Positions 1-61,912 of a DNA stretch of 61,912 nt are shown piece by piece. Made by a program: the position numbers and the translations under genes. Origin of the DNA: a bacterium (GTDB taxonomy: Bacteria > Patescibacteriota > Minisyncoccia > Phycocordibacterales > JABMNX01); assembly GCA_002687905.1 (NCBI GenBank), contig NZBM01000008.1, positions 1 to 61,912 on the forward strand. The letters run 5' to 3'. The notes beneath the pieces were generated by a model. That model was given only the letters and a program-made list of their open reading frames with translations, was not told where the DNA came from and did no database searches. How positions within the stretch are numbered: position 1 is the stretch's first letter; each line of letters starts with the position of its first letter.

Positions 1-116
1 CGCTACCGGATCCAGTTTCCATATACGCCAGAGTGTTTCCGGCTACGGCTTGAAACAGCGTGTGGTATGCGAACTCAAAAAATGAAAATACTTGGTGCGA
101 TATGCTGGCATTTTAG

Positions 117-5472: not shown

Positions 5473-7854
5473 ATGCGTTCGTATGACCACAGGAAAATAG
5501 AGGCTAAATGGCAAGAGAAGTGGGAGAAAGAAAAACTATATGAAGTTAAAGATGAAGTAGCGGGACGCAAGAACCGCTACGTTTTGGTTGAATATCCATA
5601 CCCCTCTGGGAATCTTCATATTGGACACTGGTATGCATTTTCTGTGCCTGACATATACGCCCGCGCAAAGAGAATGCAGGGAGAGAATGTTCTCTTTCCA
5701 ATGGGCTTTGACTCCTTTGGTCTTCCTGCAGAAAACGCTGCAATAAAGAATAAAGTAGATCCGAGAGAGTGGACAGAGGAGAATATAAAGACAATGACGA
5801 AGCAGTTAAAGAGTATGGGAAACTCTTTTGATTGGTCGCGAAGACTGGCTGCGTCAGATCCAGATTATTACAAATGGACACAGTGGCTCTTTCTTAAGTT
5901 TCTTGACGCGGGTCTCGCGTATCGCGGGAAGGCGGCAGTTAATTGGGACCCAGTAGACCAGACCGTGCTTGCAAATGAACAAGTTCTTCCAGACGGAACG
6001 GGCGAGCGCTCAGGCGCAAAAGTTGAAAGAAGGTATTTAGAACAGTGGTTTATCCGCATTACAGATTACGCAGATCGTCTCGTTGATGATTTAGAGGTTT
6101 TGGAGTGGCCGGAGCAAATAAAGGAGTCGCAAAGGAACTGGATAGGGAGAAAAAGCGGAGCAGAGATTGATTTTAAAGTCACCGGGACTTCAGAGAAGAT
6201 AAAAGTTTTCACAACAAGACCCGATACTCTCTTTGGTGCAACATACATGGTTCTTGCTCCCGAGCATGAGCTAGCAGAGAAGCTAAAAAATAGTATTTCA
6301 AACTGGTCAAAGGTTACTAAGTATATAAAAGAGGCAGAACTTAAATCTGATATTGATAGAACAGCACTCGATAAAGAAAAAACAGGAGTGCTACTTGAAG
6401 GGGTATCAGCAATTAATCCAGCAAACGAAAGTGAGATACCGGTTTACATCGCTGATTATGTCCTTGCCCACTATGGTACTGGGGCGATTATGGCAGTTCC
6501 CGCACACGATGAGCGTGATCATGAATTTGCAGTGAAATTTGGTATTGAAGAAGTAGAAGTAGTTGAAGGAGGAAACATTCCATACACCGGAGAGGGAATT
6601 CTTAAAAACTCAGGCGAGTTTAATGGAATGGATAATGAAGATGCAAAGATAAAAATAACCGAGCGTGTTGGGGGAGCGCTTACAAACAATTACAAGCTTC
6701 GCGACTGGCTAGTCTCTCGCCAGCGCTACTGGGGTGCGCCAATTCCGGTTGTTTATGATCCAAATGGAAATCCTCATCCTATTCCAGAGGAGCACCTGCC
6801 GTGGCTTTTACCGCAGGACATCAGCTTTGATGTAAAAGGAAAATCGCCACTTAGCACTTCCAAGGAATTTGTAGAACGAACAGAGAGTATCTTTGGGCAG
6901 GGGTGGACCCCAGAGATGGATACTTTCGACACTTTTGTTGATTCTTCCTGGTATTTCTTAAGATATCTTGACCCAAAAAATGAAAGTGACTTCTCAGACA
7001 TAAAGAAACAAAAGAAATGGATGCCGGTTGATATGTACTCTGGTGGCGCGGAGCACACGACTATGCACGTCCTTTATTCTAGGTTTTTCTACAAGGCACT
7101 CTTTGACCTGAAGCTTGTAACCGATAAGGAGCCTTACAAAGTAAGAATGAATAGAGGAATAATTCTTGGAACAGATGGTGCAAAGATGAGTAAAAGCAAA
7201 GGTAATGTCATTGACCCTGACGATCAAGTTAAAAATGTCGGTGCAGATTGTGTGAAAATGTACCTCGCATTTGTTGGACCCTATGGAGAGGTTGGAACAT
7301 ATCCGTGGGATATGGGAGGAATTGCGGGTATCAGACGTTTTCTTGAGAGGGTGTGGGGTGTTTCGGAGAAAGTAGAAGGCACTGAGACAAGTGAGAACGT
7401 TAGAAGAGAGCTTAATAAGACTATAAAAAAGGTGGAAGAGGATATAGACGAATTTAAATTTAACACCGCAATAAGCCAGATGATGATTCTTGTAAACAAA
7501 ATTGAAAAAGAGGGCCCGATATCAAAAGGTGATTTTATGAAATTCCTAAGAGTACTTGCTCCGTTTGCGCCACATTTAACTGAAGAGATATGGGAAGGCA
7601 TTGGCAATAAGAAATCATTACACCTAGATGATTGGCCGATTTATGAGGAGAAGTATCTACAAAGTGAGGAGGTAAAAATAGCTGTTCAGGTAAACGGCAA
7701 AGTGCGGGCAACGATATCTATACCAACAGATTCATCTGAAGAAGAGACTATAAAGGTGGCAAAAAAGGACAATGTGGTTAGCAAGTGGTTAGGGGACAGT
7801 AAGGTTAAAAAACAGATCTATGTTAAAAATAGGCTCATAAACTTCGTCACTTGA
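5473..7854 (+). CDS. leuS: leucyl-tRNA synthetase
   Basis: PYPSGNLHIGH (HIGH), KMSKSKGN (KMSKS), 793 aa. Confidence 0.95.
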   Translation: MRSYDHRKIEAKWQEKWEKEKLYEVKDEVAGRKNRYVLVEYPYPSGNLHIGHWYAFSVPDIYARAKRMQGENVLFPMGFDSFGLPAENAAIKNKVDPREWTEENIKTMTKQLKSMGNSFDWSRRLAASDPDYYKWTQWLFLKFLDAGLAYRGKAAVNWDPVDQTVLANEQVLPDGTGERSGAKVERRYLEQWFIRITDYADRLVDDLEVLEWPEQIKESQRNWIGRKSGAEIDFKVTGTSEKIKVFTTRPDTLFGATYMVLAPEHELAEKLKNSISNWSKVTKYIKEAELKSDIDRTALDKEKTGVLLEGVSAINPANESEIPVYIADYVLAHYGTGAIMAVPAHDERDHEFAVKFGIEEVEVVEGGNIPYTGEGILKNSGEFNGMDNEDAKIKITERVGGALTNNYKLRDWLVSRQRYWGAPIPVVYDPNGNPHPIPEEHLPWLLPQDISFDVKGKSPLSTSKEFVERTESIFGQGWTPEMDTFDTFVDSSWYFLRYLDPKNESDFSDIKKQKKWMPVDMYSGGAEHTTMHVLYSRFFYKALFDLKLVTDKEPYKVRMNRGIILGTDGAKMSKSKGNVIDPDDQVKNVGADCVKMYLAFVGPYGEVGTYPWDMGGIAGIRRFLERVWGVSEKVEGTETSENVRRELNKTIKKVEEDIDEFKFNTAISQMMILVNKIEKEGPISKGDFMKFLRVLAPFAPHLTEEIWEGIGNKKSLHLDDWPIYEEKYLQSEEVKIAVQVNGKVRATISIPTDSSEEETIKVAKKDNVVSKWLGDSKVKKQIYVKNRLINFVT

Positions 7855-40928: not shown

Positions 40929-42260
40929 ATGAATTCGTGCTTAAAGCACATTTTAGTGTCGTCTTTTTTGATGCTGGCGCTTTTTGTATTTGATGTAAGT
41001 GCGGCCAATTTAGATGACCTAAAGGGACAAATTAATGAGAGAAATAAAAAGATAGTAGAGCTTGAAGCTGAAATAGCCGAATATGAAGAGGAATTAGTTG
41101 AAATAGGGGAGGAGAGACAAACGCTTGAAAGCGCAGTGAATACTCTCGACATATCAAGAAGAAAGCTTTCAACCGATATAAAAGTCACTGAAAATAGAAT
41201 TACCTCTACAAGTCTTCAGATTGAGGAACTTGGAGGGGAGATAGGGGGCAAGGAGCGCCTTATTGCTCAAAATAATAAAGCGGTTGCGCAAGCTATAAGG
41301 AAAATAAACGAGATTGAATCCCAAACCTTAGTAGAGGCGGTTTTAGTTCACGATGATTTAAATGAATTTTGGGACGAACTTGAGACACTGCAAAGATTTC
41401 AAATTGTAGTAAGAGATGAGCTAAAAGAATTGGAGGTTCTTAAAGAGGATTTGGAAAATACTAAAGATAAATCTGAAATTAAGAAAAGGGACCTTACAGG
41501 TTTTAGAAATGAACTGGGCGGACAGAAGAGAGTTCTTGATGATACTAGGGAAGAGAAGAATACTTTACTTAAGGAAACAAAAAATGAAGAAGCCGAGTAC
41601 CAGACTCTTCTTAATGAAAAGAAGGAAGCGAGAGAGCGTTTTGAGCAAGAACTCTTTGAGCTTCAGTCACAGCTTCAAATTGCAATTGACCCTACAAGTA
41701 TTCCCCCAGCTGGATCAGGAGTATTGAGGTGGCCTTTTGATACTTCCTATATGCAAAAGTGCCAGTCCTACAAGACATCTCTTGGAAATATATTTTGTGT
41801 GACTCAATATTTCGGAAATACCAAGTTTGCTACAAAGAACCCCCAAGTTTATGGAGGGAAGGGGCACAACGGTGTTGACTTCAGAGCGCCAACCGGAACT
41901 AAGCTAAGAGTCTCTCTTGGAGGCATTGTAACAGGCTCTGGTAATACTGATTTACAGCGAGGGTGCTTCTCTTATGGAAAGTGGGTTCTTATAAAGCACA
42001 ACAATGGTCTATCAACCTTATATGCGCATCTCTCTCATATAAGCGTATCTTCAGGAGAGGTTCTTGTAAGTGGAGATTTGATTGGATATAGCGGAAATAC
42101 GGGATACTCAACAGGGCCGCACCTTCATTTTGCTGTATTTGCTACTCAAGGAATTCAAATTGTTAGACTCGGAGATGTGAAGAGGGTTACTAATTGCAGT
42201 AATGTAAAAATACCTATTGCTCCTTTAGAAGCTTACTTAAATCCACTATCTTATTTATAG
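40929..42260 (+). CDS. M23 family metallopeptidase with N-terminal coiled coil (EnvC-like)
   Basis: Long heptad region, then HNGVDF...YAHLS...GYSTGPHLHF LytM motifs. Confidence 0.8.
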   Translation: MNSCLKHILVSSFLMLALFVFDVSAANLDDLKGQINERNKKIVELEAEIAEYEEELVEIGEERQTLESAVNTLDISRRKLSTDIKVTENRITSTSLQIEELGGEIGGKERLIAQNNKAVAQAIRKINEIESQTLVEAVLVHDDLNEFWDELETLQRFQIVVRDELKELEVLKEDLENTKDKSEIKKRDLTGFRNELGGQKRVLDDTREEKNTLLKETKNEEAEYQTLLNEKKEARERFEQELFELQSQLQIAIDPTSIPPAGSGVLRWPFDTSYMQKCQSYKTSLGNIFCVTQYFGNTKFATKNPQVYGGKGHNGVDFRAPTGTKLRVSLGGIVTGSGNTDLQRGCFSYGKWVLIKHNNGLSTLYAHLSHISVSSGEVLVSGDLIGYSGNTGYSTGPHLHFAVFATQGIQIVRLGDVKRVTNCSNVKIPIAPLEAYLNPLSYL

Positions 42261-42344
42261 GTGTGAATAATGCACTTGCGCTTACTTTCTAGCGTGGAAA
42301 AATAAATATAGGTCGTATTAAATTACATTTTATTTACAAAACAT

Positions 42345-42575
42345 ATGCACATGTTACATAAAGTTGCTTGGGTTTTTGTAGTAGTTGGAGCACTAAACTG
42401 GTTATGGTTCGGGCTAGCAGGATCAGAACTAGGATCATATCTAGGAGGAATGGATGGAACCACAGCAAGAGTTGTTTACGTAGTAGTAGGTCTTGCAGGT
42501 CTATGGCTACTTGTTTCAAAGTTCATGATGAAGGGTCGCCATGGTGGTGGCGGATCAATGGGCGGAGGCAACTAA
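42345..42575 (+). CDS. DUF378-like small membrane protein
   Basis: KVAWVFVVVGALNWLWFGL pattern and glycine-rich tail. Confidence 0.6.
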   Translation: MHMLHKVAWVFVVVGALNWLWFGLAGSELGSYLGGMDGTTARVVYVVVGLAGLWLLVSKFMMKGRHGGGGSMGGGN

Positions 42576-42597
42576 TTTTCTCAGCTTAATTCAGAAG

Positions 42598-42618
42598 AGC
42601 CGCTCACGCGGCTTTTTT
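42598..42618 (+). terminator. rho-independent terminator
   Basis: AGCCGC-TCAC-GCGGCT followed by TTTTT. Confidence 0.7.
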
Positions 42619-42633
42619 GATTTAAAAGGAAAT

Positions 42634-42996
42634 GCGCCGGCTGTGGGAGGTCCTTCCAGCCGGCGCTTCGCATCGCTTTTGGAGGTCCCCGTGGGGGCGT
42701 GTGACCCAGCGGAGAGGAGCGATGCTAGGTTAGCCCATACAACCTAACCATAAGAGACATCCTAATTGAAATAAATATAAAAGCAAGAAAAATAAAATGA
42801 CCGCCCGGCTCCAGGGGCGGCCAAGTCACGTCTAGTCGCTTGAGGGCTTCTGCGTAAGCCACTCGCGCTCCAATAGAATAGGGGAGGGGGAGCAATTTAG
42901 CAAGTTAAAAAGGACCCGCTGGTTTGCGAGTTTCGCAAATGCTCCAGCGGGCCAAGGTGTCGCCGGTAGGCGCGGGGGCGTTTTGTGCCATACACC
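42634..42996. other. GC-rich, hairpin-dense non-coding island (candidate small RNAs, identity unknown)
   Basis: Nested stems at 42634-42666, 42670-42725, 42726-42746, 42801-42820, 42845-42860, 42912-42953 and 42956-42996. Two of them are followed by T-runs when read on the minus strand. Confidence 0.35.
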
Positions 42997-43377
42997 AGCG
43001 ATAGGTTAATTCTAAATTCAAAAAATTTTTCTTAACAGTGGATAAGTATTAAGAGTCGGAAAAGATATATTGTGCGACACATATATAATTAAGGAATGTA
43101 GCAAATAAGCCCTATTCCCTACATATATTAGCTAAAGCAACCTTATAATTTTTAGACTGTGTTATCTCCCTCCCCTCTGCTATGTATTACTCACTCTTCT
43201 GTTTACATTAATACAAATAAATTCTATTTACCTTGTTTGAATTTAAATTCTTTTTTCAGATCATTTGATTCACATCTTTTATATAAATACGAGGAGCTAA
43301 ATTCTACGTATAAAACTTTGAGAAACTATTCCCTGTTTCGTTATATAATTTTCGTATTAATAATAAAGTAAGTATTT

Positions 43378-43758
43378 ATGAATAAATTACTTCCATGGGG
43401 TCCGCTTGTCGCTCGTATTGTTGTTGGCGGATTTTTCATAATGTCTGGAGTAGCAAAAATTACAGGCTTTGCTGGTATTGTTGCTTTCGCAGCTTCCGCA
43501 GGTCTCCCTGCGCCGGCTTTGGCTATTATGATTGCAATAGTAGTTGAGCTACTTGGTGGTCTTTCTGTACTTCTTGGTTACAAGATTCAGTGGGGCGCAC
43601 TTGCGCTTGCTCTTTTTGTGGTAGCTACCGCAGTTCTCTTTCACGCTGACTTTGCTGACCAAGCACAACAGACTGCATTTATGAAGAATCTTGCCATCGC
43701 GGGTGGTCTTCTCTATATGGCACGCTTCGGTCCCGGAAAAATGTCTATCGAAAAGTAG
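43378..43758 (+). CDS. DoxX family membrane protein
   Basis: LVARIVVGGFFIMSGVAKI...ELLGGLSVLLG pattern. Confidence 0.75.
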   Translation: MNKLLPWGPLVARIVVGGFFIMSGVAKITGFAGIVAFAASAGLPAPALAIMIAIVVELLGGLSVLLGYKIQWGALALALFVVATAVLFHADFADQAQQTAFMKNLAIAGGLLYMARFGPGKMSIEK

Positions 43759-43780
43759 TCTATATTTTAGGCCTAAATTT

Positions 43781-43808
43781 GCGACTCACTTGGTTGAGTC
43801 GCTTTTTT
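43781..43808. terminator. bidirectional terminator hairpin (palindromic box family 1, copy 1)
   Basis: AAATTT-GCGACTCA-CTTGGT-TGAGTCGC-TTTTTT between convergent DoxX and LOG genes. Confidence 0.7.
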
Positions 43809-44532
43809 AGTTTCTAAGTGCACTACACTTTGGCACATTCTTTATTATTGTCTCGTATGCCTCCTCTGTTGAATCAACAATATGAAAAAGGGTCATATCC
43901 TCCGGCGAGATTGTGTGATGTTTTTCTAAAAGTTGTGTCTTAAAGCATTTAATAAGGGGTTCCCAATATGCTTTTCCGTATAAAATTATGGGAATTTTTC
44001 GTATTTTTTTTGTCTGCACTAATGTAAGAATCTCAAAAAACTCATCCATCGTCCCAAAGCCCCCCGGGAAATAAACATAAACTTCTGAAGCAGAAGCAAG
44101 CATTACCCTTCTTGTGAAGAAGTAATGAAAATCTTCTGAATCATTTGTAAATTCATTGAGCCCCTGCTCATTTGGCAGTTCTATATTTAATCCGACAGAC
44201 TTTCCTCCTGCTTCAAAGGCACCTTTGTTTGCAGCTTCCATCACACCTGGTCCCCCACCTGTAATAACGGCAAAACCGGCTCTAGCGAGCTTGCCAGCCA
44301 GCACTTCTGCTTCATCATATATTCTATCTCCCAGGCCACATCTAGCCGAACCATAAAATGTTACGGCAAGTGAGTATTTGCGTAGAAGCTCAAAGCCTTC
44401 CACTAGTTCCCCCATTATTCTAAAAACTCGCCAGGAACTCTCGCTTTCGCTAAAAAGCTCCTCGTCTATCCGACAGGTATTTGCAGGCGCTTTTTTGTCT
44501 AAATTATCTCCTTCAGGGTCAAGTTCTCGCAT
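43807..44532 (-). CDS. LOG family (TIGR00730) nucleotide phosphoribohydrolase
   Basis: GGGPGVMEAANKGA and PGGFGTMDEFFE motifs. Confidence 0.85.
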   Translation of the reverse strand: MRELDPEGDNLDKKAPANTCRIDEELFSESESSWRVFRIMGELVEGFELLRKYSLAVTFYGSARCGLGDRIYDEAEVLAGKLARAGFAVITGGGPGVMEAANKGAFEAGGKSVGLNIELPNEQGLNEFTNDSEDFHYFFTRRVMLASASEVYVYFPGGFGTMDEFFEILTLVQTKKIRKIPIILYGKAYWEPLIKCFKTQLLEKHHTISPEDMTLFHIVDSTEEAYETIIKNVPKCSALRN

Positions 44533-44552
44533 TAAAAACTATTGTAACACTA

Positions 44553-45149
44553 CTATTTTTCTTTTTGCCAAGGAATTGGGAATTCATCAAACTCTGGTAG
44601 AAGTTTTTTATCATAAAGAAGTCTTGAAAGCACTTCTGCGTGTGAAAGCGCCCCTGTAAGAGCATTATGCGGAGCAGGTTCATTTGGTATTCCACAGTAA
44701 TTTAGAACGGCGTCTAGATTAAGAGCTGACCTTTGCTTTTCCATTGGTGGCTTATTCCCTCTTTTAACAATATGCATCCAAGCCAACGTATGTGTATCAA
44801 TTGTTCTGTACGCCAGCTCCCAATTTAAATGAACACGCTCGGCTGCCGTTTTTAAGAAATCTCTATCAAAGGATACATTCTGCCCTGCAAGCATATGGTC
44901 GCCCACACTCTTTGCCCATTCTAGAAACTCTGTAATTAATTCTCCTTCGGTTTTTTTATTCGGGTCAGTGATTTCTTCTTTTGTCAGTCCGTTTACTTCA
45001 AGCGCTTCGTCCATTATATGAGCCCCATCCCAAATCCTACACTCGCCATAAAAACGATTCTCTGGATTGGCTAAATCAAGAGCTCCAATTGATACAATTG
45101 AATGCTTGTGATATTCGGTTCCGGATGCTTCTACATCTACTACTATCAT
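44553..45149 (-). CDS. DEDD-type 3-prime-5-prime exonuclease domain protein
   Basis: MIVVDVEASGT (Exo I), GQNVSFD (Exo II), HNALTGAL (Exo III, DEDDh). Confidence 0.75.
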   Translation of the reverse strand: MIVVDVEASGTEYHKHSIVSIGALDLANPENRFYGECRIWDGAHIMDEALEVNGLTKEEITDPNKKTEGELITEFLEWAKSVGDHMLAGQNVSFDRDFLKTAAERVHLNWELAYRTIDTHTLAWMHIVKRGNKPPMEKQRSALNLDAVLNYCGIPNEPAPHNALTGALSHAEVLSRLLYDKKLLPEFDEFPIPWQKEK

Positions 45150-45158
45150 TTTAAATAT

Positions 45159-45524
45159 TTATTTAAGTCCCTTACAATTTGCTGCTGGTGTGTACCCTGC
45201 CCTTCTAGCTTCTTCAATTGTGCTAAATTCTACCTTATTTTGAGGAGCTATGCGCTTTGCTCCAGAGCACCAAGGGTAGTGATATTTGCTGCCATTTCTT
45301 GATGCCACAACCGCCCCTCCTCCTAAGGAGGCTGTTGAGGTCAAATCAGTGCCTAATTCAGCGCTAATTATCTCCACGGGCTCTTTTTTGGTCTCAAGAG
45401 CGGACAATCTACCCAGACCAAAAGAGCCCGTTCCTACTAAAATAATGATTAAAATAAGGGCAGTTTTCGAGTCCAGAATATCCTCAGATTGCTTGATTTT
45501 AGCCCAAATCTCTCGTATACTCAT
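45159..45524 (-). CDS. membrane-anchored sunset/Ada-Zn-like domain protein
   Basis: N-terminal TM helix; C-terminal [14 protein letters not shown]...[14 protein letters not shown]. Confidence 0.55.
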
Positions 45525-45544
45525 CTTTCAAGTATAAAGTCAAT

Positions 45545-45817
45545 ATGGCACATAAAAAAGCTGGTGGATCAGCTAAAAACCTAAGAGACTCAAACCCGAA
45601 ATACCTCGGCACAAAGCTCTATCAAGGCGCTAAGGCCAAAATCGGCTCTATTATTGTGCGTCAGCGCGGAACCAAAATTGAACCCGGTAAAAATGTTGGA
45701 CTGGGAAATGACCACACCCTTTTTGCGACAAAGGAGGGCACGGTTCAGTTTAGAGACAAAAGAAAAACTCGTTTTGACGGAAAGGTGGTCAGAAAAAAGG
45801 TAGTGGACGTTCTCTAG
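45545..45817 (+). CDS. rpmA: 50S ribosomal protein L27
   Basis: [22 protein letters not shown]...VRQRGTK. Confidence 0.95.
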
Positions 45818-46257
45818 CTCGCTTTTACGACAAGTTTAAGGACGCCTTTCTTACCTCCCGCCTCAAGTTCAATATCGAATTCACCAACCTCTTTTATGGA
45901 GCTTTTTAATTGAATAGACTCTTTTGAAAGCTCAATTTCTTTTTGCTCTTTAAGAGTTTTTACAATAGCGAGCGCAGTAATTCCTTTAAATAAGCGACCT
46001 TTCTCATTTGCCTCTTGTGTAATTTCTACTTTAGTCTTCTTTAAATCAGCAAGAGCTTTCGTAAGGACATCTGATTTTTCTTTTTCTTCGGCAAGTTGCT
46101 CCTTCTTCATTAACTCAATTCCCTTCACTTTTTTATCTGTAGCTACTTCGGCCAGTCCATTTGGAATTAAAAAATTCATTGCGTATCCATCTGCAACATT
46201 TTTTACATCATATTTTACTCCAACCCCTGTTACATCATTTACTAATATTACTTTCAT
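45814..46257 (-). CDS. rplI: 50S ribosomal protein L9
   Basis: MKVILVNDV...[16 protein letters not shown]. Confidence 0.9.
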
Positions 46258-60171: not shown

Positions 60172-60201
60172 AACGCCGCGGGCTTCAAACTCCGCGGCGT
60201 T
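60172..60201. other. GC-rich 10-bp hairpin in the antiporter/tRNA intergenic region
   Basis: AACGCCGCGG-10 nt-CCGCGGCGTT. Confidence 0.6.
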
Positions 60202-60209
60202 ACTCTTTA

Positions 60210-60238
60210 TGGTCATTTCCCGAAAGTCGTTATATAAT
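60210..60238 (+). promoter_or_regulatory. putative tRNA-Glu promoter (TGGTCA-17 nt-TATAAT)
   Basis: Consensus -10 hexamer 20 nt upstream of the tRNA 5-prime end; weak -35. Confidence 0.45.
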
Positions 60239-60246
60239 TCCCGCAC

Positions 60247-61803
60247 TTAAATATAGACGGCCCTATCGTCTAACGGTTTAGGACACCACCCTCTCACGGT
60301 GGAAATCGGGGTTCGATTCCCCGTAGGGTCACAATTTAGAACTTTTCCCAACGCGCGTCGCTCCGCGACGAATTCAGACAGAACTGGCGCGCCGAAGCGC
60401 GCGGATTTGTCACGAACCGTAGGGTTCGTTCCAACTTTTTTAATGAAGGAGCTGATTTCGTATAAATCTTGCGAGAAGCTCAAAAATTGGGCTTGTTTCG
60501 TATCTAAAATCCATTCCCGCAGGGGTTCGACCCAATTATTTCCCACACATTCAAAATCTTTCCTTTTCTCCTGCAAAGTAAGCGATTCTCTCATAAGCTT
60601 GTCTTTCTTGGCGAGGTAAATATCTTTAGGAACATCACCATCAATAAAAGCCGAGACAAGACGGTCAAGCTTCTCCTCGCTTGCTTTGATTTTGTTTGTA
60701 AGATTTTGAAGCGTACTTTGCGATGAGTGACTTTCTTCTTTCTCCCATGTATCAACTTGTTTGAGCATTTCATCAGTCACATCATCGGAAAGCGAAATTG
60801 TTTGCAGTCGTTCCTTTACCTCTGCGACAAGAGACTCTTCACGCAAATATCCTTGGGAACATATTCCTTTCTTTTTCGTACATCGATAGTAGCGATATCT
60901 GCCACCGCACTTTCCTGTCGCCCACTGCGCAGTGATCATACTCCCGCACTCGCCGCAACGAAAAAGCCCAACAAACGGAAAGTTGTGCGCGGTCTTGGTT
61001 TTGCGCGGGCGCTCTCGCGTCGCAAGGACTTTCTGCACGGCTTCAAACAATTTCGGGGAAATAATTGGCGCAAAGCTTCCGTCAAACCATTCCTCCTTAT
61101 GCTTCACAAAACCTAGATACGCTCTGTTTGTAAGCAGTCGTTTGATGGAAGCTTTGCCAAGTGGCGCACCTTTGGAAGTAGTTACTCCGTGGAGCGCCAA
61201 AAAGTCGGCGAGAGATTCGTATGAATATGTTCCTTTTGCATACTCACGAAAAGCGCGAGCAATAATTTTAGAATGAGTCGGATGCGGTTCGATATTGCGA
61301 GTCTTTGGATTGTTCACATAACCAAAAGGTGCTTTCGTGAGCCACTCACCTCGCCGTACTTTTTGGCGCATACCTCGCTTGGTATTTTCTACCAAATTAT
61401 CGGAGTAATACTTCGATTGACCGAACGCCACTTGAAGCATAAAGAGTCCCTGCGGGGTAGGTTCAAACCAAAAAGTCGGAAAACGCAAAGACGTAATTTT
61501 CTTTTGATCGACAAGATAAATGATGCGACCACCATCTACACTATTTCGCGCGAGTCTATCTGGATGCCATGCGAGAATACCCGCATTCTCCATTTCCTCA
61601 ATCTTCGCCATCATTTTATTAAACACACTTCTCCCCGGAGTCTTTGCGCTTTTCGACTCTTGAAATGTCTCAACAATTTCAAGATTTTCTTTGCGAGCAA
61701 ATTCACGAAGCTCAAAGAGTTGCGCTTCAATACTCATGACTTGTTTGTCATCATCCTCCGTACTCTTGCGAGCATAAAGAAAATATTTTGGTTTGATGTT
61801 CAT
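60247..61803 (-). CDS. large serine recombinase (resolvase catalytic domain + recombinase domain + zinc ribbon + coiled coil)
   Basis: YARKSTEDDDKQVMSIEAQ catalytic Ser region, HPDRLARN, CGECGS...YYRC zinc ribbon. The last ~85 codons are encoded by IR-related sequence and the antisense tRNA. Confidence 0.9.
   Translation of the reverse strand: MNIKPKYFLYARKSTEDDDKQVMSIEAQLFELREFARKENLEIVETFQESKSAKTPGRSVFNKMMAKIEEMENAGILAWHPDRLARNSVDGGRIIYLVDQKKITSLRFPTFWFEPTPQGLFMLQVAFGQSKYYSDNLVENTKRGMRQKVRRGEWLTKAPFGYVNNPKTRNIEPHPTHSKIIARAFREYAKGTYSYESLADFLALHGVTTSKGAPLGKASIKRLLTNRAYLGFVKHKEEWFDGSFAPIISPKLFEAVQKVLATRERPRKTKTAHNFPFVGLFRCGECGSMITAQWATGKCGGRYRYYRCTKKKGICSQGYLREESLVAEVKERLQTISLSDDVTDEMLKQVDTWEKEESHSSQSTLQNLTNKIKASEEKLDRLVSAFIDGDVPKDIYLAKKDKLMRESLTLQEKRKDFECVGNNWVEPLREWILDTKQAQFLSFSQDLYEISSFIKKVGTNPTVRDKSARFGAPVLSEFVAERRALGKVLNCDPTGNRTPISTVRGWCPKPLDDRAVYI
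60259..60331 (+). tRNA. tRNA-Glu (anticodon CUC), no encoded CCA
   Basis: Hand-folded cloverleaf: acceptor GGCCCTA/TAGGGTC (one G-U), anticodon stem CCACC/GGTGG with loop CTCTCAC, T arm CGGGG-TTCGATT-CCCCG. Close resemblance to canonical tRNA-Glu. Confidence 0.85.
60329..60411. repeat. inverted repeat, left copy (IR-L, 83 bp)
   Basis: Exact reverse complement of 61828-61910 (checked base by base); starts in the last 3 nt of tRNA-Glu. Confidence 0.95.
60492..60509. repeat. inverted repeat extension, left copy (18 bp)
   Basis: CTTGTTTCGTATCTAAAA = reverse complement of 61809-61826. Confidence 0.9.
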
Positions 61804-61808
61804 ATAGC

Positions 61809-61910
61809 TTTTAGATACGAAACAAGAGACAAATCCGCGCGCTTCGGCGCGCCAGTTCTGTCTGAATTCGTCGCGGAGCGACGCGCGTTGGGAAAAGTTC
61901 TAAATTGTGA
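61809..61910. repeat. inverted repeat, right copy (18 + 1 + 83 bp, contiguous)
   Basis: Lies 5 nt upstream of the recombinase start codon; ends 2 nt before the window edge. Confidence 0.95.
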
Positions 61911-61912
61911 AG

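What the first reader, a model, noticed from the sequence alone, without database searches (positions are those of the whole stretch)
60329..61910. Large serine recombinase gene enclosed by perfect 83-bp (101-bp composite) GC-rich inverted repeats that begin inside tRNA-Glu
Seen directly: 60329-60411 is the exact reverse complement of 61828-61910 (83/83). A further 18 nt (60492-60509) is the exact reverse complement of 61809-61826. The repeat is about 57% G+C by my hand count, in an AT-rich genome. Each copy carries two dyad-symmetric GC stems (CGTCGC-TCC-GCGACG and GCGCGC-CGAA-GCGCGC, which reads GCGCGC-UUCG-GCGCGC on the other strand). The left copy starts in the last 3 nt of tRNA-Glu(CUC). 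The right copy is the 5-prime leader of the recombinase (start codon at 61801-61803). The left copy lies inside the 3-prime end of the same ORF, so the mRNA ends are perfectly complementary. A recombinase gene sitting inside its own inverted repeats is the layout of Hin/Gin-type invertible segments. Those systems use small serine invertases and 26-bp sites. Here the enzyme is a ~500-aa large serine recombinase of the integrase/transposase class, and the repeats are several-fold longer. Alternatively this is an IS-like unit with a serine transposase and long TIRs, which I do not recognise as a described IS family. Inversion would place the gene co-directionally just downstream of the tRNA-Glu promoter and would exchange its C-terminal tail. 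Caveat: the window ends 2 nt after the right copy, so the outer flank is unseen.
Basis: partly seen in the sequence, partly recalled or inferred. Interest (0 to 1): 0.85.

Follow-up and report, generated by a model that had tools for sequence, protein, structure and literature searches.

The report
tRNA-targeting serine-integrase element, inverted spare end
The repeat is real: it is the tRNA-side end of a small mobile element, very common in ultra-small (Patescibacteria/CPR) bacteria, whose integrase gene is cut at its tail when it inserts beside a tRNA gene and which carries an inverted spare copy of that gene end upstream.

Summary
The 83-bp perfect inverted repeat (IR), the extra 18-bp piece, tRNA-Glu and the 518-aa large serine recombinase (LSR) are all confirmed.

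It is not an assembly artefact. 67 of 80 related loci from other Patescibacteria genomes, three closed chromosomes among them, have the same layout. The LSR is flanked by 71-148-nt IRs ("arms"; median 131 nt, 36 perfect). In 60 of 67 the arm at the 3' end of the gene ends about 4 nt inside a convergent tRNA or tmRNA gene.

The outer edge of the arm is a recombination core. Contigs with the window's own host flank (99.9-100% identical) carry four different alleles that diverge exactly at GTGA|CCC. Two alleles differ by a 2.66-kb segment whose end points lie at two such cores.

Outside the upstream arm, on the other strand, lies a conserved in-frame tail of the LSR (…ILTFARTHFE). The integrated gene has lost it. 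The tail and about 200 nt beyond it recur, inverted, beyond 1-6 kb of variable cargo.

My reading: a tRNA-targeting integrative element with an attP-like site inside the integrase ORF and a second, inverted attP copy. Hin-like switching and an IS with terminal repeats are not supported as stated. The role of the spare copy is inferred only.

The parts
60210..60238 (+). Sigma-70-like promoter (TGGTCA-17-TATAAT) just upstream of tRNA-Glu. It belongs to the host, not the element.
60259..60332 (+). tRNA-Glu(CUC). This is the host half (B') of the attachment junction. Its T-loop CGAAC lies 15-19 nt from the boundary.
60329..60332 (.). Core (TCAC on the plus strand, GTGA in LSR sense), shared by the arm|tRNA and arm|tail junctions. 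The inferred crossover lies within it.
   Evidence: Four alleles of this same host locus diverge here. The L131/L132 deletion end points lie at such cores. The minimal shared block in other loci is 4 nt.
60329..60411 (-). 3' arm (left IR copy). It encodes the last 27 residues of the LSR before the core (DKSARFGAPVLSEFVAERRALGKVLNC-D). I read it as the P half of an attR-type junction.
60412..60491 (-). 80-nt coding segment X (…FLSFSQDLYEISSFIKKVGTNPTVR). It is present only in the 3' copy and interrupts the composite repeat.
60492..60514 (-). S: 18 (to 23) nt coding for WILDTKQ, complementary to the leader.
60247..61803 (-). Large serine recombinase ORF (518 aa as assembled). The native part ends at the core (60333). 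The last 28-29 codons are antisense tRNA, not native sequence.
61804..61827 (-). Leader (24 nt in this window, 26 nt most commonly in other loci) between the 5' arm and the ATG. It contains S' (61809-61826).
61828..61910 (+). 5' arm (right IR copy): the spare inverted copy of the LSR 3' end. Read on the plus strand it codes the same 27 residues and runs outward into the tail.
61837..61852 (-). GCGCGC-CGAA-GCGCGC hairpin followed by a T-rich tract. It is terminator-like for transcription entering the LSR from outside. The twin is at 60387-60402 (+), after the tRNA.
   Evidence: sequence
61911..61912 (+). AG: the first 2 nt beyond the core. It fits the start of the tail (TGT GA|A G.. = C-E-(E/G), as in L006 TGTGA|AGAAATA). 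The rest of the element (tail, post-tail, HTH gene, cargo, distal junction) lies off the window.

Best explanation
The window ends inside a compact integrative mobile element. The element is inserted at the 3' end of tRNA-Glu.

Its integrase is a large serine recombinase (LSR). The integrase's attP-like site lies inside its own ORF, between the last variable stretch (the 'arm') and a conserved C-terminal tail (…(D/E)IL(T)FART(H/Y)FE).

Integration crosses over in a 4-nt core at tRNA positions about 71-74. It joins the arm to the tRNA and moves the tail, a ~200-nt post-tail and the cargo to the far end of the element.

The element also carries a second, inverted copy of arm + tail + post-tail directly upstream of the integrase gene. 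In LSR orientation the integrated layout is:
x|tail-posttail - cargo (XRE-type HTH gene plus 1-6 kb of variable genes) - posttail'-tail'|arm' - leader - LSR - arm|tRNA.

Shown:
- the architecture and its wide conservation;
- the core as the junction of natural insertion and deletion variants;
- the coding conservation of the detached tail;
- tandem arrays in which a newcomer sits between a resident arm and the tRNA.

Inferred:
- the LSR itself catalyses these events;
- the free form is a circle with two inverted attP sites;
- the repeats stay identical through homologous recombination or gene conversion;
- the spare copy allows insertion in either orientation and/or lets an inversion across the arms restore a full-length integrase in the integrated state.
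For: Family size: more than 6,600 homologues at 66-89% identity. Every named hit in the list is annotated as a Patescibacteria-group bacterium or simply 'bacterium'. 572 related stretches were found in GTDB species genomes.

Architecture: 67 of 80 loci have IRs of 71-148 nt around the LSR. 36 are perfect and 50 are at least 98% identical. In 60 of 67 the 3' arm ends in a convergent tRNA (Glu, Ser, Ala, Arg, Leu, Lys, Gly, Pro) or tmRNA, usually with a 4-nt overlap. Three closed chromosomes are among them: CP060229.1, OY970382.1 and CP129473.1.

Tail: in frame just outside the 5' arm in 42 of 43 loci. Variability is highest at the third codon position (entropy 1.13, against 0.85 and 0.59).

Second IR pair: the tail and post-tail region (about 85-260 nt, mostly 98-100% identical) brackets 1-6 kb of cargo in at least 18 loci.

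Three junctions: x|tail, arm|tail and arm|tRNA share only a 4-7-nt core.

Same host locus as the window: flanks are 99.9-100% identical but there are four alleles, all diverging at GTGA|CCC. L132 equals L131 minus 2.66 kb, with end points exactly at two cores.

Mobility: modules 85-95% identical in DNA sit at different tRNAs in different species.

Tandem arrays: L126, L131, L140 and L141 have a distal arm joined to the neighbour's tail.

Half-site geometry: an invariant CGAAC lies at +21..25 in the tail and at +15..19 in the tRNA T-loop. This fits the longer attP half-sites known for LSRs (my knowledge of the LI integrase work).

Cargo: a conserved HTH_3 gene plus varied genes.
Against: - There is no biochemical or read-level evidence.
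- No unambiguous free circular form was found. The 399-nt IR of L086 ends at the contig end and could be a mis-threaded palindrome. L081 also fits an integrated copy.
- Most 'opposite orientation' contigs have perfect arms that short-read assemblers can mis-thread. Only L121 (arms about 80% identical) is safe.
- No true virgin attB was seen at the window's locus. The LSR-free allele L130 still has a degenerate arm next to the tRNA.
- Newcomers appear to use arm|tRNA sites, which are not canonical attB sites for known LSRs.
- Why the spare copy exists is not shown by any test here.
- The 18-nt S/S' match and the conserved post-tail are unexplained.
Confidence: 0.75

Rival explanations
1. A programmed invertible segment, Hin-like in logic. 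The main job of the recombinase is to flip its own gene between the two repeats. That switches its C-terminus and its position relative to the tRNA promoter, as a phase-variation device resident in the chromosome.
For: - Perfect IRs flank the gene in most loci.
- The conserved in-frame tail can only be joined to the gene body by inversion, excision or a neighbour's insertion.
- The opposite orientation with the tail exists in L121.
- Near-perfect identity of the arms implies ongoing exchange between them.
Against: - 60 of 67 genome loci have the tRNA or tmRNA at the 3' end of the gene and none has it upstream. That includes the 12 loci whose arms have diverged below 95%.
- The window and the window-type contigs L136 and L138 all show one orientation.
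- The same core is the end point of insertions and deletions.
- Near-identical modules sit at different tRNAs in different species.
- Known LSRs do not recombine two like sites (established knowledge of phiC31 and Bxb1).
- The defining Hin/Gin features are absent: about 190 aa, a C-terminal HTH and 26-bp sites.
Confidence: 0.1
2. An IS-like transposon. The unit [post-tail'-tail'-arm'-LSR-arm-tail-post-tail] (about 2.3 kb with roughly 380-nt terminal inverted repeats) is the mobile entity, the LSR is its transposase, and the flanking 'cargo' is merely whatever it landed in.
For: - The module is conserved while the sequence beyond the post-tail varies.
- L082 and L083 are 100% identical for 1.9 kb and diverge exactly at the post-tail end.
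- L086 shows a 399-nt IR on both sides of the LSR.
- Several diverged copies occur per genome.
Against: - In integrated copies one repeat is cut at the core and joined to a tRNA.
- The second tail and post-tail copy lies beyond the cargo, so the cargo is inside the unit that moves.
- Targets are tRNA or tmRNA 3' ends in 60 of 67 loci. There is no target-site duplication, only a shared 4-7-nt core.
- An HTH gene always sits next to the module.
- The L082/L083 pattern is also what an unresolvable IR longer than the reads would give.
Confidence: 0.08
3. An assembly artefact at a contig end: a chimeric fold-back that created a false inverted copy.
For: The window stops 2 nt after the right copy. 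Many related contigs also break at or near the arms.
Against: The same structure lies inside long contigs and three closed chromosomes from independent projects. Some of those arms differ by a few bases. Breaks at the arms are what a real repeat causes.
Confidence: 0.01

Closest known systems
Large serine integrases of phages and integrative elements (phiC31, Bxb1, A118/LI, SPbeta SprA, CcrAB, XisF)
   Same: The domain order is the same: Resolvase, Recombinase, then Zn ribbon with a long helical insertion. The best solved relative is SprA, E = 1e-14 over residues 10-416. The junctions share only a few bases. The two right-hand half-sites carry the same motif at positions 6 bp apart.
   Different: - It is below the cut-off of every named NCBIfam equivalog.
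- It has about 100 extra C-terminal residues.
- The target is the 3' end of many different tRNA and tmRNA genes rather than a protein-coding gene.
- The attP-like core lies inside the integrase ORF.
- A second inverted attP copy lies upstream.
- Newcomers seem to use arm|tRNA junctions.
SSV-type 'suicidal' tyrosine integrases of archaeal viruses and plasmids (SSV1, pTN3, pT26-2)
   Same: The recombination site lies within the integrase gene, so the gene is fragmented on integration. The targets are tRNA genes. Together this makes a compact int+att module (PMC8371274, read).
   Different: Those are tyrosine recombinases of archaea, split in mid-gene, with no spare copy. Here the enzyme is a bacterial serine recombinase, only a C-terminal tail of about 12-15 residues is removed, and an inverted spare 3' end is kept.
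Tycheposons and other small tRNA-integrating cargo islands
   Same: They are small site-specific elements at tRNA 3' ends. The integrase is next to the tRNA, the cargo is variable, they stack in tandem at hot spots, and they occur in streamlined genomes (bioRxiv 10.1101/2020.12.28.424599).
   Different: 910 of 937 of those use tyrosine recombinases and carry a partial tRNA copy as a direct repeat. No inverted duplication of the integrase end is described for them.
Yeast 2-micron plasmid (FLP and its 599-bp inverted repeats)
   Same: By my knowledge, a recombinase's target sites are embedded in long perfect IRs that divide a small circle into two invertible segments.
   Different: FLP is a tyrosine recombinase acting on identical sites. 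Its inversion serves copy-number amplification. No replication gene or free plasmid was shown here.
Hin/Gin/Cin/Pin invertases
   Same: They are serine recombinases. The hin gene lies inside its invertible segment between inverted sites.
   Different: They are small (about 190 aa), with a C-terminal HTH, 26-bp sites and an enhancer. None of these features is present here.

Membership tests
Large serine recombinase (integrase) family | N-terminal resolvase-type catalytic domain with the serine nucleophile | tested here: met
   PF00239, E = 4e-24, residues 8-154. The motif YARKS-T…Q has S13 and R11 invariant in 50 homologues.
Large serine recombinase (integrase) family | Recombinase domain followed by a zinc-ribbon domain with an embedded coiled coil | tested here: met
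   PF07508 and PF13408. Four conserved Cys (C282, C285, C307, C314). Long helices at 339-419 in a low-confidence model.
Large serine recombinase (integrase) family | Short att sites with crossover at a central dinucleotide, and attP half-sites longer than attB half-sites | tested here: inconclusive
   The junctions share a 4-7-nt core. The natural deletion L131->L132 ends at two cores. The CGAAC motif lies 6 bp further out in the tail than in the tRNA. The crossover dinucleotide was not determined.
Large serine recombinase (integrase) family | Directionality: attP x attB alone, and attL x attR only with a directionality factor | not testable with these tools
   This needs biochemistry. The arrays suggest use of arm|tRNA (attR-like) sites.
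Hin/Gin-type DNA invertase system | Small (about 190 aa) serine recombinase with a C-terminal HTH | tested here: not met
   518 aa with LSR domains and no HTH hit.
Hin/Gin-type DNA invertase system | Both orientations of the segment coexist at one locus | tested here: not met
   The window-type contigs of the same host locus that I examined (the window, L136, L138) have one orientation. 60 of 67 genome loci have the tRNA or tmRNA at the 3' end of the gene and none has it upstream. Reads were not available, so rare variants are not excluded.
IS / transposon bounded by terminal inverted repeats | The inverted repeats are the termini of the inserted unit, with a target-site duplication | tested here: not met
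   The ends of the integrated unit are x|tail and arm|tRNA. The IRs are internal, and only a 4-7-nt shared core is present.
IS / transposon bounded by terminal inverted repeats | Insertion at many unrelated targets | tested here: not met
   60 of 67 loci lie at a tRNA or tmRNA 3' end.
tRNA-integrating integrative element / genomic island | Integrase gene next to a tRNA 3' end, variable cargo, and defined junctions at both ends | tested here: met
tRNA-integrating integrative element / genomic island | Presence/absence or replacement polymorphism in otherwise identical backgrounds | tested here: met
   Four alleles occur at the window's tRNA-Glu, with host flanks 99.9-100% identical.
tRNA-integrating integrative element / genomic island | Excised circular form with a rejoined attP | tested here: inconclusive
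   L081 and L086 fit a circle, but both end in the repeats.
'Suicidal' integrase modules (att site inside the int ORF) | Integration separates part of the integrase coding sequence from the gene | tested here: met
   The tail is in frame with the arm, conserved as coding sequence, and detached from the gene body in 42 of 43 loci. Most top homologues (about 100 of the 120 listed, by eye) read into antisense tRNA instead.
'Suicidal' integrase modules (att site inside the int ORF) | SSV-type tyrosine recombinase | tested here: not met
   The enzyme is a serine recombinase. The resemblance is functional only.

The most novel reading that the evidence does not exclude
The inverted spare copy is a built-in repair switch for a self-truncating integrase. 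Insertion removes the C-terminal helix and so locks the element in place. A flip of the gene across the perfect arms re-attaches the body to the spare tail. The flip would come from host homologous recombination or from the enzyme itself. It restores a full-length enzyme and licenses excision or further recombination. That would be a two-state, DNA-encoded control of mobility with no separate directionality factor. The family would also provide serine integrases whose natural target is the universally conserved tRNA T-arm and acceptor end.
Probability: 0.25. Interest if true: 0.8.

Novelty: new variant of a known kind. Interest (0 to 1): 0.66.

Why it matters
Patescibacteria make up a large share of bacterial diversity, have tiny genomes and almost no genetic tools.

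This element family is abundant. It has thousands of database copies, often several per genome. It carries varied cargo: restriction-modification genes, transporters, metabolic enzymes and surface proteins. At the window's own locus it turns over within a single marine population. It is therefore probably a main route of gene gain and loss in these organisms.

For recombinase biology it offers three things:
- a serine integrase that targets tRNA 3' ends;
- an attachment site inside the enzyme's own reading frame;
- a conserved inverted second site.

I found none of these described in the literature I could search.

Practically, the repeats explain why Patescibacteria contigs so often break next to tRNA genes. 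The integrase and site pairs are also candidates for engineering tools.

Tried and rejected
- Exact-protein look-up of the window's LSR found nothing.
- IMG/VR holds no relatives, only two antisense-tRNA matches, so these elements are not catalogued as viruses.
- Rfam gave nothing for the arms, leader or post-tail in the window or in seven related loci.
- Whole-arm RNA folding is not better than shuffles in 7 of 8 cases. I therefore do not claim a structured RNA, although each arm keeps 2-3 GC hairpins.
- The AlphaFold model is poor (mean pLDDT 62.6, pTM 0.38). I used it only for secondary structure and ran no fold search.
- I first took the 14 'tail-type' proteins, the 27 contigs with a tRNA upstream and L086 as proof of the flipped or free form. 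I then downgraded them. Arms of 115-140 nt can be mis-threaded by short-read assemblers. On long contigs, tail-type proteins turned out to be distal members of tandem arrays.
- L082 and L083 could be flip isomers of one element, but they share no cargo sequence, so this is unproven.
- L130 is not a clean empty site, because it retains a degenerate arm.
- A separate small ORF for the spare arm and tail: the frame is open on the plus strand at 61603-61911, but no ATG was seen there. I did not pursue this.
Full report
**1. The observation**

- 60329-60411 and 61828-61910 are perfect reverse complements, 83/83. A second piece, 60492-60509 / 61809-61826, is also exact, 18/18.
- The repeat is 56.6% G+C in a 41.3% window. 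A chance match of this length is expected about 1e-40 times.
- tRNA-Glu(CUC) lies at 60259-60332, so the left copy starts 3-4 nt inside it.
- The minus-strand ORF 61803->60247 (518 aa) has Resolvase, Recombinase and Zn_ribbon_recom domains. It passes through the left copy and then reads antisense through the entire tRNA, so its last 28-29 codons are not native.
- The two GC hairpins are present. Whole-arm folding is not better than shuffled controls.

**2. It is a conserved architecture, not an artefact**

The protein has more than 6,600 database relatives at 66-89% identity. All the named ones are annotated as Patescibacteria-group bacteria or simply 'bacterium', and many sit on 1.6-2-kb contigs.

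I analysed 80 loci from different GTDB species by self-BLAST and ARAGORN.
- 67 have inverted repeats ('arms') of 71-148 nt, median 131, around the recombinase gene.
- 36 pairs are perfect and 50 are at least 98% identical.
- In 60 of the 67, the arm at the 3' end of the gene stops about 4 nt inside a convergent tRNA (Glu, Ser, Ala, Arg, Leu, Lys, Gly, Pro) or tmRNA.

Three closed chromosomes show it: CP060229.1 (two diverged copies), OY970382.1 and CP129473.1. CP129473.1 carries the closest relative of the window's enzyme (89% identity). It has the same short 84-nt arm type at tRNA-Glu(CUC).

Contigs very often stop at or near the arms, as this window does. That is what a real repeat does to short-read assemblies.

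**3. What lies beyond the repeat**

Read outward from the upstream arm on the opposite strand, the sequence continues in frame. It gives a conserved peptide, (D/E/G)(E/D)(I/L)(L/I)(T/S)(F/L)ART(H/Y/F)F(E) followed by a stop. This holds in 42 of 43 loci. Variability is highest at third codon positions, so the stretch evolves as coding sequence.

The native recombinase therefore ends arm + tail. In the usual genomic state the gene body is joined to arm + tRNA instead.

The window's two extra bases (AG) fit the start of such a tail.

In at least 18 loci, the tail plus about 200 nt of conserved, GC-rich 'post-tail' recurs as a second inverted pair, mostly 98-100% identical. The other copy lies 1-6 kb further out. 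Between the two copies lie an XRE-type HTH gene next to the recombinase module and then variable genes. These include a beta-helix/PKD surface protein, a GTP cyclohydrolase II-methyltransferase fusion, an aromatic amino-acid lyase, an ABC transporter, restriction-modification genes and a reverse transcriptase.

The three junctions x|tail, arm|tail and arm|tRNA share only a 4-7-nt block: G(C/T)G(G/A), which corresponds to tRNA positions about 71-74.

**4. The repeat's outer edge is a recombination point**

The sodium/calcium exchanger gene next to the window's tRNA occurs with 100% protein identity on 20 public contigs. The host flanks are 99.9-100% identical to the window. Four alleles exist, and all diverge from each other exactly at GTGA|CCC, the arm|tRNA boundary.
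- (a) The window type (the window, L136, L138).
- (b) L130, L135, L137 and L139. They have no recombinase: murE, a cupredoxin gene and a degenerate solo arm.
- (c) L131, L133 and L134. This is a tandem: a full LSR2 whose arm is joined to a tail, then a few small ORFs, then a 5'-truncated LSR1 whose arm is joined to the tRNA.
- (d) L132. It equals L131 minus 2.66 kb.

The L131 junctions …GGTGA|GGATATT and …TGTGA|CCCTAC become …GGTGA|CCCTAC in L132. The two arms involved are unrelated in sequence. This is therefore the footprint of conservative site-specific exchange at the cores. It is neither homologous recombination nor an assembly error.

The same 'arm of one element joined to the tail of the next' is seen in CP129473.1, L140 and L141. 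This suggests that newcomers insert between a resident arm and the tRNA and so build arrays.

Recombinase modules 85-95% identical in DNA sit at different tRNAs in different species. That shows recent horizontal movement.

**5. Site anatomy**

I aligned 43 junctions on the boundary.
- The arm ends in GAAGTTTCnnTnTG(T/C)G.
- The tail begins GTGAnATnnTAACCTTTGCGCGAAC.
- The tRNA side reads …GGGAnTCGAACCC.
- AAGTTT in the arm and AACCTT in the tail form a weak dyad.
- The invariant CGAAC lies at +21..25 in the tail and at +15..19 in the tRNA T-loop.

A distal motif set about 5 bp further out in attP than in attB half-sites is the known hallmark of large serine integrase sites. That statement comes from my knowledge of the LI/A118 integrase work and was not tested here. 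It would also explain how one enzyme family can use many different tRNAs, since the T-loop is universal.

**6. Orientation**

I scanned metagenome contigs for a tRNA T-loop placed 173-203 nt upstream of the recombinase start on the same strand. This gave 37 contigs, about 27 of them with a genuine tRNA in that position.

Most of these have perfect arms and end in the distal arm, so they may be mis-threaded assemblies. L121 is safe. Its arms are only about 80% identical and its recombinase ends with the tail, …WWDILNVARTHFERDS.

The opposite orientation therefore exists but is rare. In the genome set, 60 of 67 loci have the tRNA or tmRNA at the 3' end of the gene and none has it upstream. The window-type contigs I examined all agree with the window. 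I found no locus with both orientations.

**7. Mechanism**

The best-supported reading is a tRNA-targeting integrative element. Its serine integrase carries its attP-like site inside its own 3' coding end. Integration therefore swaps the C-terminal tail for antisense-tRNA codons.

A poor AlphaFold model (mean pLDDT 62.6) still predicts a C-terminal helix at 500-519 with local pLDDT about 80. The helix spans the core and the tail and would be broken by the Pro-Thr-Gly read from the tRNA.

One copy is intact upstream of the gene. The other is split by integration.

What the spare copy is for is inference. There are four possibilities.
- It keeps an intact attP and an intact gene end in the integrated state.
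- It would allow insertion in either orientation.
- A flip across the arms would restore the full-length enzyme.
- Its inner hairpin plus T-tract looks like a terminator facing outward-in on both sides of the gene.

Recombinase genes in integrated copies are intact and strongly conserved. This argues that integrated copies are not dead ends. It fits either an active tail-less enzyme or restoration by flipping, by excision or by a neighbour's arrival. The near-perfect identity of repeats that differ widely between elements implies frequent exchange between the two copies.

**8. Comparison and novelty**

The enzyme is a large serine recombinase. It is below the cut-off of all named equivalogs, and its closest solved relative is SPbeta SprA.

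In concept it is closest to the archaeal 'suicidal' SSV-type integrases, whose att site lies within the gene (PMC8371274). It is also close to small tRNA-linked cargo islands such as tycheposons.

It differs from all of these in three ways: a serine integrase that targets tRNA ends, an att core in the ORF, and a conserved inverted second copy.

Literature searches combining Patescibacteria/CPR terms with serine recombinase, tRNA and inverted repeats found no description. A 2025 survey of Patescibacteria genomic islands does not mention recombinases or tRNAs. The searchable library is incomplete, so prior description cannot be excluded.

**9. Verdict**

The Hin-like switch and the IS with terminal repeats do not. 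I rate it a new variant of a known kind, with interest 0.66.

Noticed in passing
window 60492-60514 and 61804-61826; also L003-L013 and others: The 18-nt S/S' match is conserved across the family. S (coding for WILDTKQ) usually lies about 80 nt inside the arm. S' sits in the short leader (most often 26 nt) just before the ATG, in a different reading frame. A match was found in 34 of 47 loci scored. Possible explanations are an mRNA 5'-3' pairing, a protein-binding site, or two independently constrained relics.
   Followed up: partly
L006 3622-3847, L014 3605-3849, L126 9651-9907 and equivalents: The roughly 180-nt 'post-tail' after the tail stop is conserved at the DNA level whether or not the ORF runs on. 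It is GC-rich with small hairpins and a repeated GCGTGGTG motif. It has no Rfam match. It could hold the promoter or operators for the adjacent HTH gene.
   Followed up: partly
L002 1-1716 (DFOW01000001.1): The recombinase is flanked by tRNA 3' ends on both sides. The upstream arm, of a different sequence type, is joined to a co-directional tRNA fragment at the contig start. This may be the result of the spare site recombining with a second tRNA.
   Followed up: no
L126 4000-9650 (CP129473.1): The cargo of the closest relative's element includes a reverse transcriptase (RVT_1), a DNA methylase, an HTH gene and a tRNA-Arg(UCU) gene. The distal junction abuts a remnant arm of another element type, 126 nt after murE.
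   Followed up: partly
L127-L129, upstream of the LSR: In the P0002 host, the island at the same murE…tRNA-Glu…rmuC position carries a 760-aa TraG/VirD4-like ATPase (DUF87, TraG-D_C) and small ORFs. No second inverted pair is seen within 10 kb.
   Followed up: no
window 60172-60201: A strong GC hairpin (11 pairs) lies between the sodium/calcium exchanger gene and the tRNA-Glu promoter. It is terminator-like.
   Followed up: no
window 42000-46000: Cumulative GC skew peaks near 42-44 kb and GC skew changes sign there. This may be a replication origin or terminus, or simply a change in gene orientation.
   Followed up: no
window 61603-61911 (+): The plus-strand frame that encodes the spare arm is open for at least 103 codons, antisense to the LSR N-terminus. 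No ATG was seen in it. It is probably not a gene.
   Followed up: partly
L038, L042 (3' arm ends at 5523): In two of the 67 loci the 3' arm ends in a tmRNA gene (ARAGORN count). In L038 the sequence just past the arm looks like a tmRNA 3' end. L057 abuts non-tRNA sequence.
   Followed up: partly
L014, L019, L021, L022, L036, L050 versus L030, L039, L049, L062, L065, L074: A divergent tRNA-Ser(CGA)/tRNA-Glu(UUC) pair recurs in many genomes. Either member can carry the element at its 3' end.
   Followed up: no
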